The notes: a model not told the origin generated them from the sequence alone. A stretch of 64,000 nucleotides of DNA from Escherichia phage EcS1 (NC_055721.1); one strand, 5' to 3'. Shown: positions 44,998 through 58,963, numbered from the stretch's first letter. Numbers and translations: made by a program.

Positions 44998-45276
44998 TCA
45001 TTTCAAATATTCTCTGAGTTCGGTGAATCCACCAATTGCTGCACCTTTAGGGTCAAAGATTTGAGGCATTGTCAAACCTGATTGAGAAGGACGATTCAGT
45101 CGTACCAACAGTTCAGAAATGACTTCAGGGTCAAACAGAAGACCGTCAGGACCTTTTCCACTAACAACTGAGATAAACTCATATGAAATTTTCTTTGCGT
45201 CCAGCAGACGTTTAGCGTTGATACATGGGATACATTTATGAATGCTTTCGTCGTAACCAAAAATCTTGTACATCAC
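44998..45276 (-). CDS. nrdC: thioredoxin/glutaredoxin NrdC
   Basis: 92 aa; KIFGYDESIHKCIPCINAKRLL...GLTMPQIFDPKGAAIGGF matches my recollection of T4 NrdC. Confidence 0.8.
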   Translation of the reverse strand: MMYKIFGYDESIHKCIPCINAKRLLDAKKISYEFISVVSGKGPDGLLFDPEVISELLVRLNRPSQSGLTMPQIFDPKGAAIGGFTELREYLK

Positions 45277-52013: not shown

Positions 52014-52992
52014 TCATTTCAACATTGTTACTTCAGCGATTTCCATCCAGTTATCATGGTCAGTAGCTACGAAGTCTGCTACATAAAGAGCCGTACGGAG
52101 TGAGACGTTACGAAGACGATTAACGTTAGACTTCATCCATTGTAAAGCTTCGATTGTTTCACTGTTTGATAAGCCACGTTTCTGCAACATATCTGTGTTC
52201 ATGATTACATCTTCAACGCGAACCATGATTTCTTCGTTTGAATGAACACCAAGGTCCAAATAAACAGAACGTGAAACCAGAGCTGCAAGATGTGGAGCAA
52301 GTTTAGAACCACGTTCTAATTCTTTGTCAACATCAACGTTAGTGATGAACACAACAGTTCCAGCAAATTCGAATTCTTTATCGATGTCTTTGTCATCAAG
52401 ATAAGACGAAGCAGTGCTCCAACAAACTTTACGAGTCTCACCAGTGTCTAAAGCAGCTTTCAGAAGGTTCAGGATATCCATGTCAGAGAAGATATCAACA
52501 TCATCAATCAGAAGCACATTACCTTCTTCTTTATTGTTCCAGAGTTGTTCGTAGAGACCGATACCTGAAATTTTGCCATTAATGCTTTTGAAAACAATAT
52601 CACCTTTTGCATCAGCACGTTTTAGAGCTTTCTCAAGGCTGTATGTCTTACCAATACCTGCAGCACCAGAGATGATTAAAGAACGAATGTTACCATTTAT
52701 GATACCAGTTGTCATCATGTTCATTACGTTAAAGCGCTTAGTGATACGAGCTTTCATTTCTTCAACTGATTCAACTTCCAGTGGAGAAGTTTCAACACCT
52801 TCCATTTCGATATCAGTTTTGAACACCCATACACCACGTTCTTTGCCATCGATTTGAACGAATACTTTGCCATCTCCCAAGTGTGCTTCATGAGCTGGAA
52901 CCATGTCCGGGAACCAAGTACGAGAAGCAATGTATTTACCAGAGATTTCGTTACCGCGGTAAGTACCTTTATTGATTTGAACGTTGAACATT
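52014..52992 (-). CDS. P-loop ATPase (AAA-like) with N-terminal unknown domain
   Basis: Walker A ISGAAGIGKTY, Walker B LLIDDVD; likely start ATG 52990-52992 (MFNVQINKG) with GGAG upstream. Confidence 0.5.
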
Positions 52993-53614: not shown

Positions 53615-53896
53615 TTAAGAGTGTTTATTAATCTGATTATGAGCTAGTTTTTTAGGTAAGAACCAAATAGCTTTAAACAAAGATACAATACCAATACAGA
53701 TAGCAATCCATAACCATAACGTCAAGAAGAACCAGAAATCAGTAGCTGTATCAACTACACCACGTTTAATCAGTTGACGAGTAATAATGTAGCCTACTAT
53801 AAAGTAGACAATAAGGATGAACCCAAATAATACCATAAGTGTTATACTCATATTTCGTCCCAATATAACTTGAACTCTATTTGATGACGAGCCCAT
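53615..53896 (-). CDS. membrane protein
   Basis: 93 aa with three hydrophobic segments. Confidence 0.4.
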   Translation of the reverse strand: MGSSSNRVQVILGRNMSITLMVLFGFILIVYFIVGYIITRQLIKRGVVDTATDFWFFLTLWLWIAICIGIVSLFKAIWFLPKKLAHNQINKHS

Positions 53897-54093
53897 CTTT
53901 TAAATTTACGAACTTGATTCTTAGTAGGTTTACAAGCAAACTTACTATTCACTCTGAAACCAGTTTCTCTGCAAACAGCTTCAAGATACCAACGTCTGCC
54001 TGTTCGAGGATGAGCTCTCCCGTAAGAGAGCCAGGTTTTCATTATACTATCTGTTGTAATAAGCATCATGGTTTTCAAGATAAACCTCTTCAA
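53848..54093 (-). CDS. hypothetical basic protein
   Basis: 81-aa ORF. Confidence 0.35.
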   Translation of the reverse strand: MKRFILKTMMLITTDSIMKTWLSYGRAHPRTGRRWYLEAVCRETGFRVNSKFACKPTKNQVRKFKRWARHQIEFKLYWDEI

Positions 54094-55060
54094 CGAATTT
54101 GTCCCAAAAGCTCATATCGACTTTAGAAGGCATACCGTTCTTGTGAGCCTGAACAGATAAACGCTCTACATCATCTACACAGATTTCTAACCATTCTTGA
54201 ACTTGTTTAAACGGAACAGTACCAGTTTTAACTTTAGTCAAGAATTCAGCATCTTTCAAAGGATATTTCAAGTCGCCAGTTGAATAGATTTCTTGAAGTT
54301 GAATACCACCACGTAATGCATGACTCAAAGCTTTCCAATCGATACCTTGGTTAGCTTCGGCCTTACGAGCACGTTCGCCATATTCGTCCCATAGTTTCAT
54401 GAGAGAATGTTTCATTTCTTTAATTGTGATAGTTGTCTGGAACTTACGGCCCAACACTTCATAGAAATGTTGTTGACCTGATTTATGGTCTGTAAACGTT
54501 GTCCATTCCAGGAATTCACCTAATGGAAGTTGAGAAGCAAAGTCAGACACACGCCAACGATCATTGATACCTTTCTGTTCTGGACGGTCAGAGTATTTCC
54601 ATTCAGGGATAGGTTCGATGACTTCGATTACTTTACGTAGGTCGGCCAGTCTTGAACCCTTTACACCATATTTCGCAGCTTGCTTACGGACATAACCAAG
54701 ATAGGCTTTCATGTCTGTCGTATAGAACTTGCTACGGTTGTCTTGGATAAACTTCCAGATATCAGGCAGGTCAGACTTAACTACAAGATTGCTAGGAGTA
54801 TGAAGCATGTCAAGAGCAACAGTTTCTCCTTCAGCAGCGAGTTTGAAGAAATACTTGAGAGAAAAGAGTTCATGGTCAACGTCATCTTTAGAGTTCTTAG
54901 AAGAACTGTTGTTAGTGTTCAAGTTAGTGTGATTCATTGCCTGGCACATCAAGATATCACGTGGATGTGGCACAAAGATTTCTTTATAGTCGACATCACT
55001 TTCTGGAGTAGATGTGCCATAAAGATGTGAGCCAAAATAACCTTTCATTACTGTTTTCAT
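54047..55060 (-). CDS. Pol-beta-superfamily nucleotidyltransferase
   Basis: 337 aa; N-terminal GSHLYGTSTPESDVDY fits the hG[GS]-x(9-13)-DxD NTase core. Confidence 0.5.
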   Translation of the reverse strand: MKTVMKGYFGSHLYGTSTPESDVDYKEIFVPHPRDILMCQAMNHTNLNTNNSSSKNSKDDVDHELFSLKYFFKLAAEGETVALDMLHTPSNLVVKSDLPDIWKFIQDNRSKFYTTDMKAYLGYVRKQAAKYGVKGSRLADLRKVIEVIEPIPEWKYSDRPEQKGINDRWRVSDFASQLPLGEFLEWTTFTDHKSGQQHFYEVLGRKFQTTITIKEMKHSLMKLWDEYGERARKAEANQGIDWKALSHALRGGIQLQEIYSTGDLKYPLKDAEFLTKVKTGTVPFKQVQEWLEICVDDVERLSVQAHKNGMPSKVDMSFWDKFVEEVYLENHDAYYNR

Positions 55061-55500
55061 AAGTAGATATGTTCCCGTTTAGCGAATTTAACCAGCTCAT
55101 TAGCTTGTTTAATCTTGCCTTCAATTTCAGCTTTATCTGTACTTTTTTTAGAAGTTACTTGAATATTTCCAATTTGCTTATACGTATAGAAATATTCTAC
55201 TTCATGCTGGTGATACATTTCGCCGTCAGGATGTTGTTCACGATTCACTACAGAACGCATCTTAGTTTCAATAATAGGCCAAACCGCCCAATCAGATGGA
55301 GTCTTAATGATTGCAACAGAGATTTTATATTTCTCATACTTGTAGTCATTAATATAACCTAAAATACGTGCAGCAGGATCCATCATCGCAAAACGAATAT
55401 CAGCATGACTTGCACGAGGCATTTGATTCACGATGCTCATTGTGAGCTTCTTTTTAGTCGTTACGATTTCAATATCCACGGATGAATTCCCATTGACCAT
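55057..55500 (-). CDS. hypothetical protein
   Basis: 147-aa ORF. Confidence 0.4.
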   Translation of the reverse strand: MVNGNSSVDIEIVTTKKKLTMSIVNQMPRASHADIRFAMMDPAARILGYINDYKYEKYKISVAIIKTPSDWAVWPIIETKMRSVVNREQHPDGEMYHQHEVEYFYTYKQIGNIQVTSKKSTDKAEIEGKIKQANELVKFAKREHIYL

Positions 55501-56260: not shown

Positions 56261-56749
56261 TTATTTAGATTTTTCTACATCAATGAATTCAAGGCTCGGG
56301 CAGTATTTAGACTTTTTAGCCTTAATAAAACTTACCAGCAAAGATGGTTCTTTTTCAGGCACGCCTGATTCAATACGTTCACGTCGTTTACGATAGCGAC
56401 GTTCTTCAAAATAATCTTTAATATATTCATAGACCCAATGGGTACCAAATGCAATACCTAAACCCACTGCGATTGTAGTAGCTAACATGATAGCGCCGAC
56501 AATAACACCTGGAACAATAGCACCAATTGTACCTAAATGAATGCCAATATAACTTGCCAGCCAAATAGCTATTTCATGACCTAAGAACCAAGCAAAGAAT
56601 CCAATAATCAAAGCTTTAAATGATGCAAAGCAAGTAAAGAACAAAGTTTTCCAGAAATAAGGACATAATGAAGTAGGAATACGCCATTCACTGTTATTAC
56701 AATAGAACATATTCAGTTTGTAGTGCCAAGAATTACGTTTAATTTGCAT
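56261..56749 (-). CDS. membrane protein
   Basis: 162 aa; several TM-like segments and a basic RYRKRRER patch. Confidence 0.4.
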   Translation of the reverse strand: MQIKRNSWHYKLNMFYCNNSEWRIPTSLCPYFWKTLFFTCFASFKALIIGFFAWFLGHEIAIWLASYIGIHLGTIGAIVPGVIVGAIMLATTIAVGLGIAFGTHWVYEYIKDYFEERRYRKRRERIESGVPEKEPSLLVSFIKAKKSKYCPSLEFIDVEKSK

Positions 56750-57411: not shown

Positions 57412-57705
57412 TTACCTCAATTGTGAGTCTTTTGACCCACGGCGGTTGTAGTAGCTTTTAACCATGTTATCAGCCTTGCTTTGACATTCAACACAAAGTA
57501 GACAACCACGAACAGCCTGACGACGAGCCAAAGGAATAGGTTCATCACAATCCTCACAGAATTCATTACTTTCACGTTTTGAAGCAATTTCTAATTCAAG
57601 GCGAGCCCAAGAAACTGCATCATCGATAACGGCTTCACGAGTAGCAAAACCTTCATCACTTGGACCCCATCCGTTCATTATAAGTTCTCCTGATTGAGAG
57701 GACAT
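57412..57705 (-). CDS. DksA/TraR-family C4 zinc-finger protein
   Basis: CEDCDEPIPLARRQAV.GCLLCVECQ; real start probably the second ATG (MNGWGP, about 57678), since the first ATG lies inside the promoter -10. Confidence 0.55.
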   Translation of the reverse strand: MSSQSGELIMNGWGPSDEGFATREAVIDDAVSWARLELEIASKRESNEFCEDCDEPIPLARRQAVRGCLLCVECQSKADNMVKSYYNRRGSKDSQLR

Positions 57706-58302: not shown

Positions 58303-58683
58303 TTATTCCAACGAAAGCAAATATTTCGTTTGGTAACATACGCCTACGATCTCATCGACCGTGTTCTGGATAGCGGATGGTAACGTTTTGTGAATAGTGT
58401 TGGATTCATTTACTATCATGTCCAACATCTTGATTGTGTCAGTCGGGAATGCAGGTTGAGGTGCAGGCACGAATTTTTTGCCACTGAATCCTAACCATTG
58501 TTCGCCAAACTTGTCGGTTAACTCTGGGATTTCACTAAAGAACTTATCATAAGCTTTATGTCTTGAATAGTTCTTAGTTTCGAAATGTGCTGAATGGAAG
58601 TATGATGCTGAAGCAAGCAAAAGACTAATATATGAATCAGCTGGTTCTACTTTCCCATCCTTTATGAACTCATTAAATTTCAT
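58303..58683 (-). CDS. hypothetical protein (rI.1 position)
   Basis: 126-aa ORF immediately downstream of rI. Confidence 0.4.
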   Translation of the reverse strand: MKFNEFIKDGKVEPADSYISLLLASASYFHSAHFETKNYSRHKAYDKFFSEIPELTDKFGEQWLGFSGKKFVPAPQPAFPTDTIKMLDMIVNESNTIHKTLPSAIQNTVDEIVGVCYQTKYLLSLE

Positions 58684-58963
58684 TTTCTAAAGGAACCTTC
58701 ATACGATTAGCGTATTCTTGACCTGCACTTTTCCCATCAATAGAACAGTTGTTATAGCACTCACCTTCTTGTTCTTGCCATTTAGCACTAATAAAAGCAA
58801 AGAACTTTTCGGACTGTTGTTTACTCGGTTCTTTGAACTTAGAATAAACTGTTAATGCTCCTTCAACGTATTGATTGAAACTAGCATCTTGTGCCGATGA
58901 AACTGATGGAGCCAAACAGGCTCCAATTAATATTGTTGTTGATAAAACACGAATAAGGCCCAT
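58673..58963 (-). CDS. rI: lysis inhibition regulator RI (periplasmic)
   Basis: 96 aa with N-terminal signal anchor; EKFFAFI...GQEYANRMKVPLENEI parallels my recollection of the T4 RI C-terminus. Confidence 0.6.
   Translation of the reverse strand: MGLIRVLSTTILIGACLAPSVSSAQDASFNQYVEGALTVYSKFKEPSKQQSEKFFAFISAKWQEQEGECYNNCSIDGKSAGQEYANRMKVPLENEI

What the first reader, a model, noticed from the sequence alone, without database searches (positions are those of the whole stretch)
54047..55060. Pol-beta-superfamily nucleotidyltransferase of unknown role in the nrdC-rI accessory region
GSHLYGTSTPESDVDY at residues 8-23 fits the GS-x(9-13)-DxD catalytic core shared by minimal NTases, CD-NTases (cGAS/DncV-like) and antibiotic NTases, followed by about 300 aa of helical sequence. 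In a region of fast-evolving early genes this could be a signalling-nucleotide enzyme or an anti-defence factor.
Basis: partly seen in the sequence, partly recalled or inferred. Interest (0 to 1): 0.5.

Follow-up and report, generated by a model that had tools for sequence, protein, structure and literature searches.

The report
T4 NrdC.11-type RlaP nucleotidyltransferase gene
This gene is the ordinary counterpart of phage T4's nrdC.11, a member of the known RlaP family of enzymes that add one or two nucleotides to broken RNA ends, so it most likely helps the phage repair cut tRNAs and is not a signalling-nucleotide enzyme.

Summary
The ORF is real: 54047..55060 on the minus strand, 337 aa. 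The G-S…D-x-D motif sits at residues 10-25, not 8-23.

The protein is 100% identical to the annotated "nucleotidyltransferase" of Escherichia phage EcS1 and 68.5% identical to T4 NrdC.11. Homologs occur in 1518 phage records.

It passes Pfam's threshold for PF10127 (RlaP). A December 2025 preprint shows that two bacterial RlaP enzymes add 1-2 NMP to RNA 3'-OH ends. That preprint lists T4 NrdC.11 as an uncharacterised RlaP.

The catalytic residues are essentially invariant in 458 homologs. Nothing links the protein to CD-NTase/cGAS/OAS enzymes or to known defence systems.

My own additions:
- This is a "long" subfamily. Only its N-terminal ~125 aa align with canonical RlaP.
- Its cellular members sit in Hen1-Pnkp, Ro60-RtcB and Rnl1-type ligase operons.
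- In 21 of those loci a canonical short RlaP lies immediately downstream.

Best reading: a template-independent RNA 3'-end nucleotide adder that works with phage Pnk and RNA ligase against nucleotide-excising anticodon nucleases. This is inferred, not shown.

Novelty: already known. Interest: low to moderate.

The parts
54047..55060 (-). Complete gene for a 337-aa nucleotidyltransferase. It is the ortholog of T4 nrdC.11 and a member of the long subfamily of RlaP/PF10127. The stop codon is at 54047-54049.
   Evidence: ORF and translation. Pfam PF10127 at 43.6 bits, above the cut-off of 23. PHROG 388, E 1.6e-128. 100% identical to the Escherichia phage EcS1 'nucleotidyltransferase'. 68.5% identical to T4 NrdC.11.
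54776..55060 (-). N-terminal Pol-beta-type NTase core, residues 1 to about 95. This and the following ~40 residues (8-135 in Pfam) are the only part that aligns with canonical RlaP.
   Evidence: Secondary structure of the model. The Pfam match covers residues 8-135, equal to profile positions 25-143 of 249. hhalign of the long against the short clade aligns only residues 3-133.
54986..55033 (-). Motif G10-S11-H-L-Y-G-T-S-T-P-E-S-D22-V-D24-Y25: the nucleotide-binding G-S turn and the two metal-binding aspartates.
   Evidence: Read directly from the sequence. G10 458/458, S11 445/458, D22 457/458 and D24 458/458 in the 458-homolog alignment.
54875..54877 (-). D62, the probable third catalytic carboxylate. 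It lies on beta strand 61-67.
   Evidence: Asp or Glu in 458/458 homologs. It aligns with the invariant D88 of canonical short RlaP. Strand assignment from the model. The catalytic role is inferred. D84 (54809-54811) is also 98% Asp/Glu.
54650..54673 (-). Motif K130-Y-G-V-K-G-S-R137, specific to the long subfamily.
   Evidence: K130, Y131, G132, K134, G135 and R137 are invariant in the 65-sequence alignment and at least 94% conserved in the 458-sequence alignment. Canonical RlaP has no equivalent. A role in RNA or NTP binding is inferred.
54311..54340 (-). Motif D241-W-K-A-L-S-H247-A-L-R250 in the C-terminal helical module.
   Evidence: H247 and R250 are present in 458/458, K243 in 457/458 and D241 in 455/458 homologs. 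The function of the motif is inferred.
55057..55060 (-). ATGA overlap. The stop codon of the upstream 147-aa gene (55057..55500, PHROG 7981, function unknown) overlaps the start codon of the NTase gene, so the two are probably translationally coupled within one minus-strand transcription unit.
   Evidence: Sequence read on the minus strand. ORF table. PHROG match. The coupling itself is inferred.

Best explanation
Identity (near certain): the gene encodes the ortholog of phage T4 NrdC.11. It is a catalytically intact Pol-beta-fold nucleotidyltransferase of the RlaP family (PF10127), in a distinct 'long' subfamily.

Mechanism (inferred):
1. Two or three acidic residues (D22, D24, D62) hold two divalent metal ions.
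2. The enzyme transfers one or a few NMPs from NTPs onto the 3'-OH of a broken RNA, without a template.
3. During infection it would act on host tRNAs cut by defence anticodon nucleases that also trim away a nucleotide, such as RloC.
4. The phage 3'-phosphatase/5'-kinase (Pnk) first heals the ends. The NTase then restores the missing nucleotide. RNA ligase 1 finally seals the anticodon loop.

The gene is an accessory, dispensable early-region gene. It would matter only on hosts carrying such nucleases.

The confidence figure below refers to the mechanism. The family assignment itself is about 0.95.
For: Family and orthology:
- PF10127 scores above its gathering cut-off, and PHROG 388 matches.
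- The protein is 68.5% identical to T4 NrdC.11, in the same position relative to NrdC.10 and rI.

Intact active site:
- G10, D22, D24 and D62 are conserved in 457-458 of 458 homologs.

Biochemistry of relatives:
- Two Pseudomonas RlaPs add 1-2 NMP to RNA 3'-OH ends. They do not act on DNA or proteins, they prefer broken-tRNA mimics, and they partly rescue aminoacylation of a tRNA lacking one anticodon-loop nucleotide.
- The same preprint places T4 NrdC.11 in the family (PMC12776372).

Published predictions:
- RlaP was predicted to restore nucleotides before ligation, and its distribution in jumbo phages mirrors that of RNA ligases (PMC7824862).
- RloC's excision of the wobble nucleotide was proposed to defeat T4 Pnk plus Rnl1 (PMC2610378).

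New evidence here, for this long subfamily specifically:
- Of 80 cellular loci encoding full-length relatives (33-53% identity), 20 carry RtcB, Pnkp, Hen1, Ro60/TROVE or an Rnl1-type ligase within 8 kb.
- Operons include Hen1-Pnkp-long-short RlaP, Ro60-RtcB-x-long-short, and ligase-long with a 4-nt overlap.
- Four distant phage contigs have Pnk, RnlA or RtcB within a few kb of the NTase gene.
- One homolog is fused to an HD_4 phosphohydrolase domain.
Against: - No member of the long (NrdC.11-like) subfamily has been assayed.
- Only the N-terminal ~125 residues are detectably homologous to the assayed short RlaPs (hhalign probability 57%, E 1e-4). The ~200-aa C-terminal module, which presumably selects the substrate, is different.
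- In 21 cellular loci the long form sits directly upstream of a canonical short RlaP. This argues that the two are not redundant, so the long form may do something else.
- In T4-type phages the gene is not adjacent to pnk or rnlA, and neither gene is present in this 64-kb window.
- No phenotype is known. T4 loses the nrdC.11-mobD.3 block without loss of viability (PMC9825161).
- The closest solved folds are HalB (an oligodeoxyadenylate synthase) and aminoglycoside NTases, not RNA-specific enzymes.
Confidence: 0.55

Rival explanations
1. Signalling-nucleotide enzyme. On this reading the protein is a CD-NTase/cGAS/DncV-like or OAS-like synthase. It would make a cyclic or 2'-5'-linked oligonucleotide that manipulates CBASS, Pycsar, Thoeris or similar pathways.
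For: Only the shared Pol-beta G-S...D-x-D core, which all these families possess.
Against: - Pfam shows no SMODS, Mab-21 or OAS1_C match at E<=1.
- PADLOC, which holds CBASS cyclase models, gives no match.
- The domain after the core is a KNTase/HEPN-like helical bundle, not the CD-NTase C-terminal lobe (assigning the HEPN hits to the C-terminal bundle is my inference).
- Cellular relatives are embedded in RNA-repair operons, not next to effector genes.
Confidence: 0.03
2. Nucleotidylation of a protein or small molecule. On this reading the enzyme AMPylates or NMPylates a host protein, for example a defence toxin in the way MNT antitoxins modify HEPN toxins. Alternatively it modifies a small molecule in the way aminoglycoside NTases do.
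Against: - These matches are weak (9-14% identity) and reflect the generic NTase plus helical-bundle architecture.
- Assayed RlaPs did not label proteins (PMC12776372).
- Gene neighbourhoods point to RNA ligases and RNA end-healing enzymes, not to toxins.
Confidence: 0.12
3. A different nucleic-acid activity from canonical RlaP. Examples are processive or primed synthesis of short homopolymers, as HalB does, or tailing of host or phage RNAs for regulation or decay. Another possibility is acting as a specificity or partner subunit of a short RlaP rather than as a simple 1-2-nt repair adder.
For: - The long form co-occurs in tandem with a short RlaP in 21 cellular loci, which implies non-redundancy.
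- The subfamily has its own invariant motifs: KYGxKGSR and DWKxxSHxxR.
Against: - Identity to HalB is only 12% and no sequence-level relationship is seen.
- Phages carry the long form alone: no short RlaP lies within 8 kb of it in the 80 viral loci or anywhere in the window, so it must be able to act without a short partner.
- The operon context is still RNA repair.
Confidence: 0.2

Closest known systems
Phage T4 NrdC.11 (uncharacterised ORF between nrdC.10 and mobD)
   Same: - Full-length ortholog: 68.5% identity over residues 1-335.
- Same length class.
- Same orientation and neighbourhood: the NrdC.10 homolog (74% identical) lies downstream, with rI and tk upstream in the transcription direction.
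   Different: In this phage two extra small genes and a DUF7279 ORF lie between the NTase gene and nrdC.10, and there is no mobD homing endonuclease next to it. No functional difference is evident.
[quoted passage not shown]
   Same: - Pfam family membership above threshold.
- G-S...D-x-D plus a third carboxylate.
- Two-part architecture: an NTase domain followed by a helical domain.
- Genomic linkage of cellular members to RtcB, Pnkp/Hen1 and other RNA ligases.
   Different: - Only the N-terminal ~125 residues align.
- The protein is ~337 aa against ~250-275 aa, with a beta insert and a different, separately conserved C-terminal module.
- The preprint's similarity network puts T4 NrdC.11 in a separate cluster (cluster 5, against cluster 1a for the assayed enzymes).
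- Activity of this clade has not been tested.
HalB nucleotidyltransferase of the Hailong anti-phage system (PDB 9dbh)
   Different: Only 12% identity and no sequence-profile relationship. HalB has 217 residues. HalB is a host defence component that makes oligodeoxyadenylate. The similarity is at the level of the fold only.
Kanamycin/aminoglycoside nucleotidyltransferases (ANT(4'), KNTase) and the NTase-like protein 3c18
   Different: About 10% identity, low global TM-scores (0.24-0.30), and a different substrate class.
CD-NTases (cGAS/DncV) and OAS
   Same: Only membership of the Pol-beta superfamily and the G-S...D-x-D signature.
   Different: No sequence, profile or fold match was recovered. 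The gene context is also different.

Membership tests
RlaP / Pfam PF10127 | Sequence match to the family profile above the curated gathering score | tested here: met
   43.6 bits against a cut-off of 23, E 3.7e-11. The match covers only profile positions 25-143 of 249.
RlaP / Pfam PF10127 | Full-length homology, including the C-terminal helical domain of canonical RlaP | tested here: not met
   hhalign of 65 long-clade sequences against 17 canonical short RlaPs aligns residues 3-133 only (probability 57%, E 1e-4). A canonical neighbour gene matches the whole Pfam profile (positions 5-248, E 1.9e-62).
RlaP / Pfam PF10127 | Conserved Pol-beta catalytic residues (G-S turn, D-x-D, third carboxylate) | tested here: met
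   G10 458/458, D22 457/458, D24 458/458, D62 Asp/Glu 458/458. D22, D24 and D62 align with D49, D51 and D88 of short RlaP.
RlaP / Pfam PF10127 | Genomic association with RNA ligases and RNA end-healing genes (the basis of the family's name) | tested here: met
   For cellular members of this same long clade, 20 of 80 loci have RtcB, Pnkp, Hen1, Ro60 or an Rnl1-type ligase within 8 kb, several in one operon. Four distant phage contigs also do. This is not met in the window itself, which has no pnk or rnlA in its 64 kb.
RlaP / Pfam PF10127 | Addition of 1-2 NMP to RNA 3'-OH ends | not testable with these tools
   Shown only for the P. fluorescens and P. aeruginosa enzymes (PMC12776372).
T4 NrdC.11 orthologous group (PHROG 388) | Full-length high-identity match and conserved position in the nrdC-rI block | tested here: met
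   PHROG 388, E 1.6e-128, residues 1-336. 68.5% identity to T4. NrdC.10 and rI flank the gene as in T4.
CD-NTase (cGAS/DncV-like, SMODS) and OAS | Profile or fold match to the CD-NTase/OAS catalytic domain and its C-terminal lobe | tested here: not met
CD-NTase (cGAS/DncV-like, SMODS) and OAS | Synthesis of cyclic or 2'-5' oligonucleotides | not testable with these tools
   Would need LC-MS of reaction products.
Minimal NTase (MNT) antitoxins / aminoglycoside NTases | Profile match to NTP_transf_2 or KNTase families above threshold | tested here: not met

The most novel reading that the evidence does not exclude
The NrdC.11-type 'long RlaP' is not just another RlaP. In bacteria it is kept in tandem with a canonical RlaP inside RNA-repair operons, and it carries its own invariant C-terminal motifs. 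It may therefore catalyse a distinct step. Possibilities include nucleotide-specific or template-guided restoration of the excised anticodon nucleotide, or HalB-like synthesis of a short oligonucleotide. T4-type phages would have captured only this half of the pair as a dedicated counter-measure to nucleotide-excising anticodon nucleases such as RloC.
Probability: 0.2. Interest if true: 0.6.

Novelty: already known. Interest (0 to 1): 0.25.

Why it matters
T4's Pnk/Rnl1 tRNA repair pathway is the classic phage counter-defence. An open question since 2008 is whether phages can also reverse lesions in which the nuclease removes a nucleotide, as RloC does.

NrdC.11-type enzymes are conserved in well over a thousand T4-like phages, and they are the obvious candidate for that missing step. 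This idea is already in the literature, and nothing about this particular copy is unusual.

The practical value here is twofold:
- A corrected annotation. Many database records call this protein 'thioredoxin'.
- A sharper, testable hypothesis for a widespread phage gene of untested function.

Tried and rejected
- NCBIfam: no meaningful match.
- PADLOC: none.
- PDB sequence searches with the protein, with the long-clade profile and with the short-clade profile gave no relatives. The PfRlaP crystal structure is therefore not in the PDB copy, and a direct structural comparison was impossible.
- Foldseek against the PDB gave nothing below E 1e-3.
- The AFDB50 fold library was unavailable.
- An exact-sequence contig look-up for the EcS1 protein found nothing.
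- Burroughs & Aravind 2016 (PMC5062991), which named RlaP, is not held in the library. I could not check whether the long/short distinction is already described there.
- I tested whether the neighbouring P-loop protein NrdC.10 is a functional partner and rejected the idea. It accompanies the NTase only in close T4 relatives (38 of the 82 viral loci clustered). It is absent next to the Caulobacter phage Cr30 homolog and next to all 80 cellular homologs. The same holds for the other immediate phage neighbours.
- The promoter/terminator consensus scan of 51.5-57.5 kb was uninformative: promoter-like sites were fewer than in shuffled sequence.
- The megablast search found no phage record covering most of the 3.5-kb query. 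The source phage itself is therefore not in that collection.

Full report
**Observation**

The window carries an intact ORF at 54047..55060 on the minus strand, with an ATG start and 337 codons. The plus strand of the same interval is full of stop codons.

The peptide GSHLYGTSTPESDVDY is present, at residues 10-25 (window 54986..55033). The spacing fits the Pol-beta superfamily signature.

The start codon overlaps the stop codon of the upstream 147-aa gene (ATGA). The gene therefore sits inside a tightly packed minus-strand cluster.

The rI antiholin is at 58673..58963 (PF24205, E 1.2e-32). A DksA/TraR zinc-finger gene is at 57412..57705. A weak glutaredoxin-like nrdC candidate is at 44998..45276.

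**Identity**

- The protein is 100% identical to the protein that NCBI names 'nucleotidyltransferase [Escherichia phage EcS1]'. EcS1 is a Kagamiyamavirus of the Tevenvirinae. The window is therefore presumably from EcS1 or a near-identical phage.
- tblastn finds homologs in 1518 phage records, and 1443 of them cover at least 80% of the protein. These include T4 at 68.5% identity, where the gene is annotated NrdC.11.
- More distant T4-like phages of Aeromonas, Acinetobacter, Vibrio, Caulobacter and Phaeobacter also carry it.
- The downstream 325-aa P-loop protein (52014..52991) is 74% identical to T4 NrdC.10.
- PHROG 388 ('nucleotidyltransferase') matches end to end, E 1.6e-128.
- Pfam assigns PF10127, RlaP, at 43.6 bits against a cut-off of 23. 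The match covers only residues 8-135.
- NCBIfam and PADLOC give nothing.

**Is the active site real?**

I aligned 458 homologs of 30-100% identity. The set drew on both protein searches, the 50%-cluster representatives and the cellular loci. Conservation was as follows:

| Residue | Conservation |
|---|---|
| G10 | 458/458 |
| S11 | 445/458 |
| D22 | 457/458 |
| D24 | 458/458 |
| D62 | Asp or Glu in 458/458 |
| D84 | Asp or Glu in 451/458 |

D62 lies on beta strand 61-67 of the model and aligns with an invariant Asp of canonical RlaP. It is therefore the likely third metal ligand.

The C-terminal part has its own near-invariant residues: K130-Y-G-x-K-G-S-R137, R230, and D241-W-K-x-x-S-H247-x-x-R250.

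**Fold**

AlphaFold2 on a 65-sequence alignment gives a confident model (mean pLDDT 91, pTM 0.77). It has:
- an alpha/beta NTase core to about residue 95;
- a helical region;
- a three-stranded insert at about residues 184-208;
- a C-terminal helical bundle.

Foldseek against the PDB finds nothing below E 1e-3. Its best matches are the NTase-like protein 3c18, HalB and ANT(4').

No cGAS, DncV, CD-NTase or OAS structure appears in either list. BFVD returns only other viral 'nucleotidyltransferases' of unknown role, from Bacillus phage G to klosneuviruses.

No RlaP structure is in the PDB copy, whether searched by sequence or by profile.

**What is known about the family**

PF10127 was named RlaP because of its linkage to RNA ligase genes. 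In jumbo phages its distribution mirrors that of RNA ligases. It was predicted to restore nucleotides lost from RNA ends before ligation (PMC7824862).

A December 2025 preprint (PMC12776372) characterised the P. fluorescens and P. aeruginosa enzymes:
- They add one or two NMPs (or dNMPs) to the 3'-OH of RNA, but not to DNA or proteins.
- They prefer Mn2+.
- They favour the broken anticodon-loop end of a tRNA mimic.
- They partly rescue aminoacylation of a tRNA that lacks one loop nucleotide.
- The authors propose RlaP as the antidote to 'smart' ribotoxins such as RloC.
- The preprint marks T4 NrdC.11 in its similarity network as an RlaP 'of unknown function', in a different cluster from the assayed enzymes.

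The RloC paper had argued that wobble-nucleotide excision could defeat T4's Pnk/Rnl1 repair (PMC2610378).

T4 tolerates loss of the nrdC.11-mobD.3 block (PMC9825161). I found no paper reporting a function or phenotype for NrdC.11.

**New evidence bearing on this subfamily**

A scan of one genome per prokaryotic species found 144 stretches that encode relatives. The 80 best are full-length, at 33-53% identity, and many lie on megabase chromosomes.

I clustered their neighbours and checked representatives against Pfam. This gave:
- RtcB in 11 loci;
- Pnkp in 7;
- Hen1 in 7;
- Ro60/TROVE in 6;
- a T4-Rnl1-type ligase in 3.

In all, 20 of 80 loci have at least one of these genes within 8 kb. By my own rough estimate, about two such loci would be expected by chance.

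The gene orders are operon-like:
- Hen1-Pnkp-long-short in Asticcacaulis and others;
- Ro60-RtcB-x-long-short-Hen1...Pnkp in a Nitrosospira contig;
- ligase-long with a 4-nt overlap in Tundrisphaera.

'Short' here is a canonical RlaP of ~270 aa that matches the whole Pfam profile (E 1.9e-62). It lies immediately downstream of the long form in 21 loci.

A profile-profile comparison of the long and short clades aligns only the N-terminal ~125 residues. NrdC.11-type proteins are thus a separate long subfamily with a distinct C-terminal module. In cells this subfamily is embedded in RNA-repair operons alongside canonical RlaP.

On the phage side:
- Among the distant viral contigs, four have Pnk, RnlA or RtcB within a few kb of the NTase gene.
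- One metagenomic homolog is fused to an HD_4 phosphohydrolase domain.
- By contrast, the immediate phage neighbours in the window have no counterparts next to the cellular homologs. These are NrdC.10, the DUF7279 ORF, the 93-aa membrane protein and the upstream 147-aa protein. They occur only in close T4 relatives, so they reflect synteny, not partnership.

**Interpretation**

The family and orthology assignment is secure. The most likely mechanism is template-independent addition of one or a few nucleotides to RNA 3'-OH ends. This would complement phage Pnk and RNA ligase 1 in repairing tRNAs from which a defence nuclease has removed a nucleotide.

The steps actually shown are the intact catalytic core, family membership and RNA-repair gene linkage of the clade. 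The substrate, the product and the biological role in T4-type phages are inferred.

The main caveat is that the assayed enzymes belong to the short clade. Tandem retention of long and short forms in bacteria suggests different jobs for the two.

The signalling-nucleotide reading has no support. Protein or small-molecule nucleotidylation, and a HalB-like polymerising activity, remain minority possibilities.

**Verdict**

This is a correct but ordinary observation:
- It is a conserved, already annotated accessory gene of T4-like phages.
- It belongs to a named family with a published functional hypothesis and recent biochemistry.
- Novelty: already known.
- Interest is low to moderate. It rests on the fact that the phage enzyme itself remains untested, and on the long/short subfamily distinction noted here.

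Noticed in passing
Cellular loci L045 8001-9802, L065 7929-9790, L073 7992-9802, L028 8001-9743 (21 loci in all): In bacteria, the NrdC.11-like long NTase is followed immediately by a canonical short RlaP of ~270 aa. The two genes often overlap by 4 nt and sit inside Hen1-Pnkp or Ro60-RtcB operons. The two forms share only the N-terminal ~125 residues. Phage loci carry only the long form. I could not check whether this pairing is already described in Burroughs & Aravind 2016.
   Followed up: partly
window 54047-55060, and database records of its homologs: Many GenBank and UniRef records name NrdC.11 homologs 'thioredoxin'. Examples are the UniRef entry for EcS1 and the Serratia phage X20 record MF036692. 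The name was apparently propagated from the locus name nrdC.11. The protein has no thioredoxin or glutaredoxin domain.
   Followed up: yes
window 52014-52991 (-): This is the NrdC.10 ortholog: 74% identical to T4, PHROG 1250 'unknown function'. It is a P-loop protein (GAAGIGKT) with sub-threshold Pfam matches to AAA_16, AAA_22 and novel STAND NTPase families. It is confined to close T4 relatives and its function is unknown. The listed ORF starts 30 codons upstream at a GTG, which is probably not the real start.
   Followed up: partly
window 53848-54042 (-): A small, basic 64-aa ORF starts 2 nt after the NTase stop codon and matches Pfam DUF7279 (E 1.9e-14). It occupies the same position in 13 of 80 related viral loci. 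Its first codons contain a GCTCTC/GAGAGC hairpin at about 54014-54031.
   Followed up: partly
protein P0162 (metagenomic contig of 2174 nt): A 495-aa homolog carries the complete NrdC.11-like NTase fused to a C-terminal HD_4 (RelA/SpoT-type HD phosphohydrolase) domain. This recalls the HD domain of bacterial CCA-adding enzymes. It is a single sequence on a short contig, so an assembly or gene-calling artefact is not excluded.
   Followed up: partly
window 53615-53896 (-) and 56261-56749 (-): Two predicted membrane proteins flank the NTase region. They match PHROG 6166 (unknown function) and PHROG 944 ('membrane protein', moron/host-takeover category). The 93-aa protein lies directly downstream of the NTase gene in 22 of 80 related viral loci.
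   Followed up: no
viral loci L154, L156, L158, L162: In distant phage contigs (about 40% identity to the query), the NTase gene lies within a few kb of an RnlA-like ligase (L154), RtcB (L156) or T4-Pnk-like genes (L158, L162). This differs from T4-type genomes, where these genes are far apart.
   Followed up: partly
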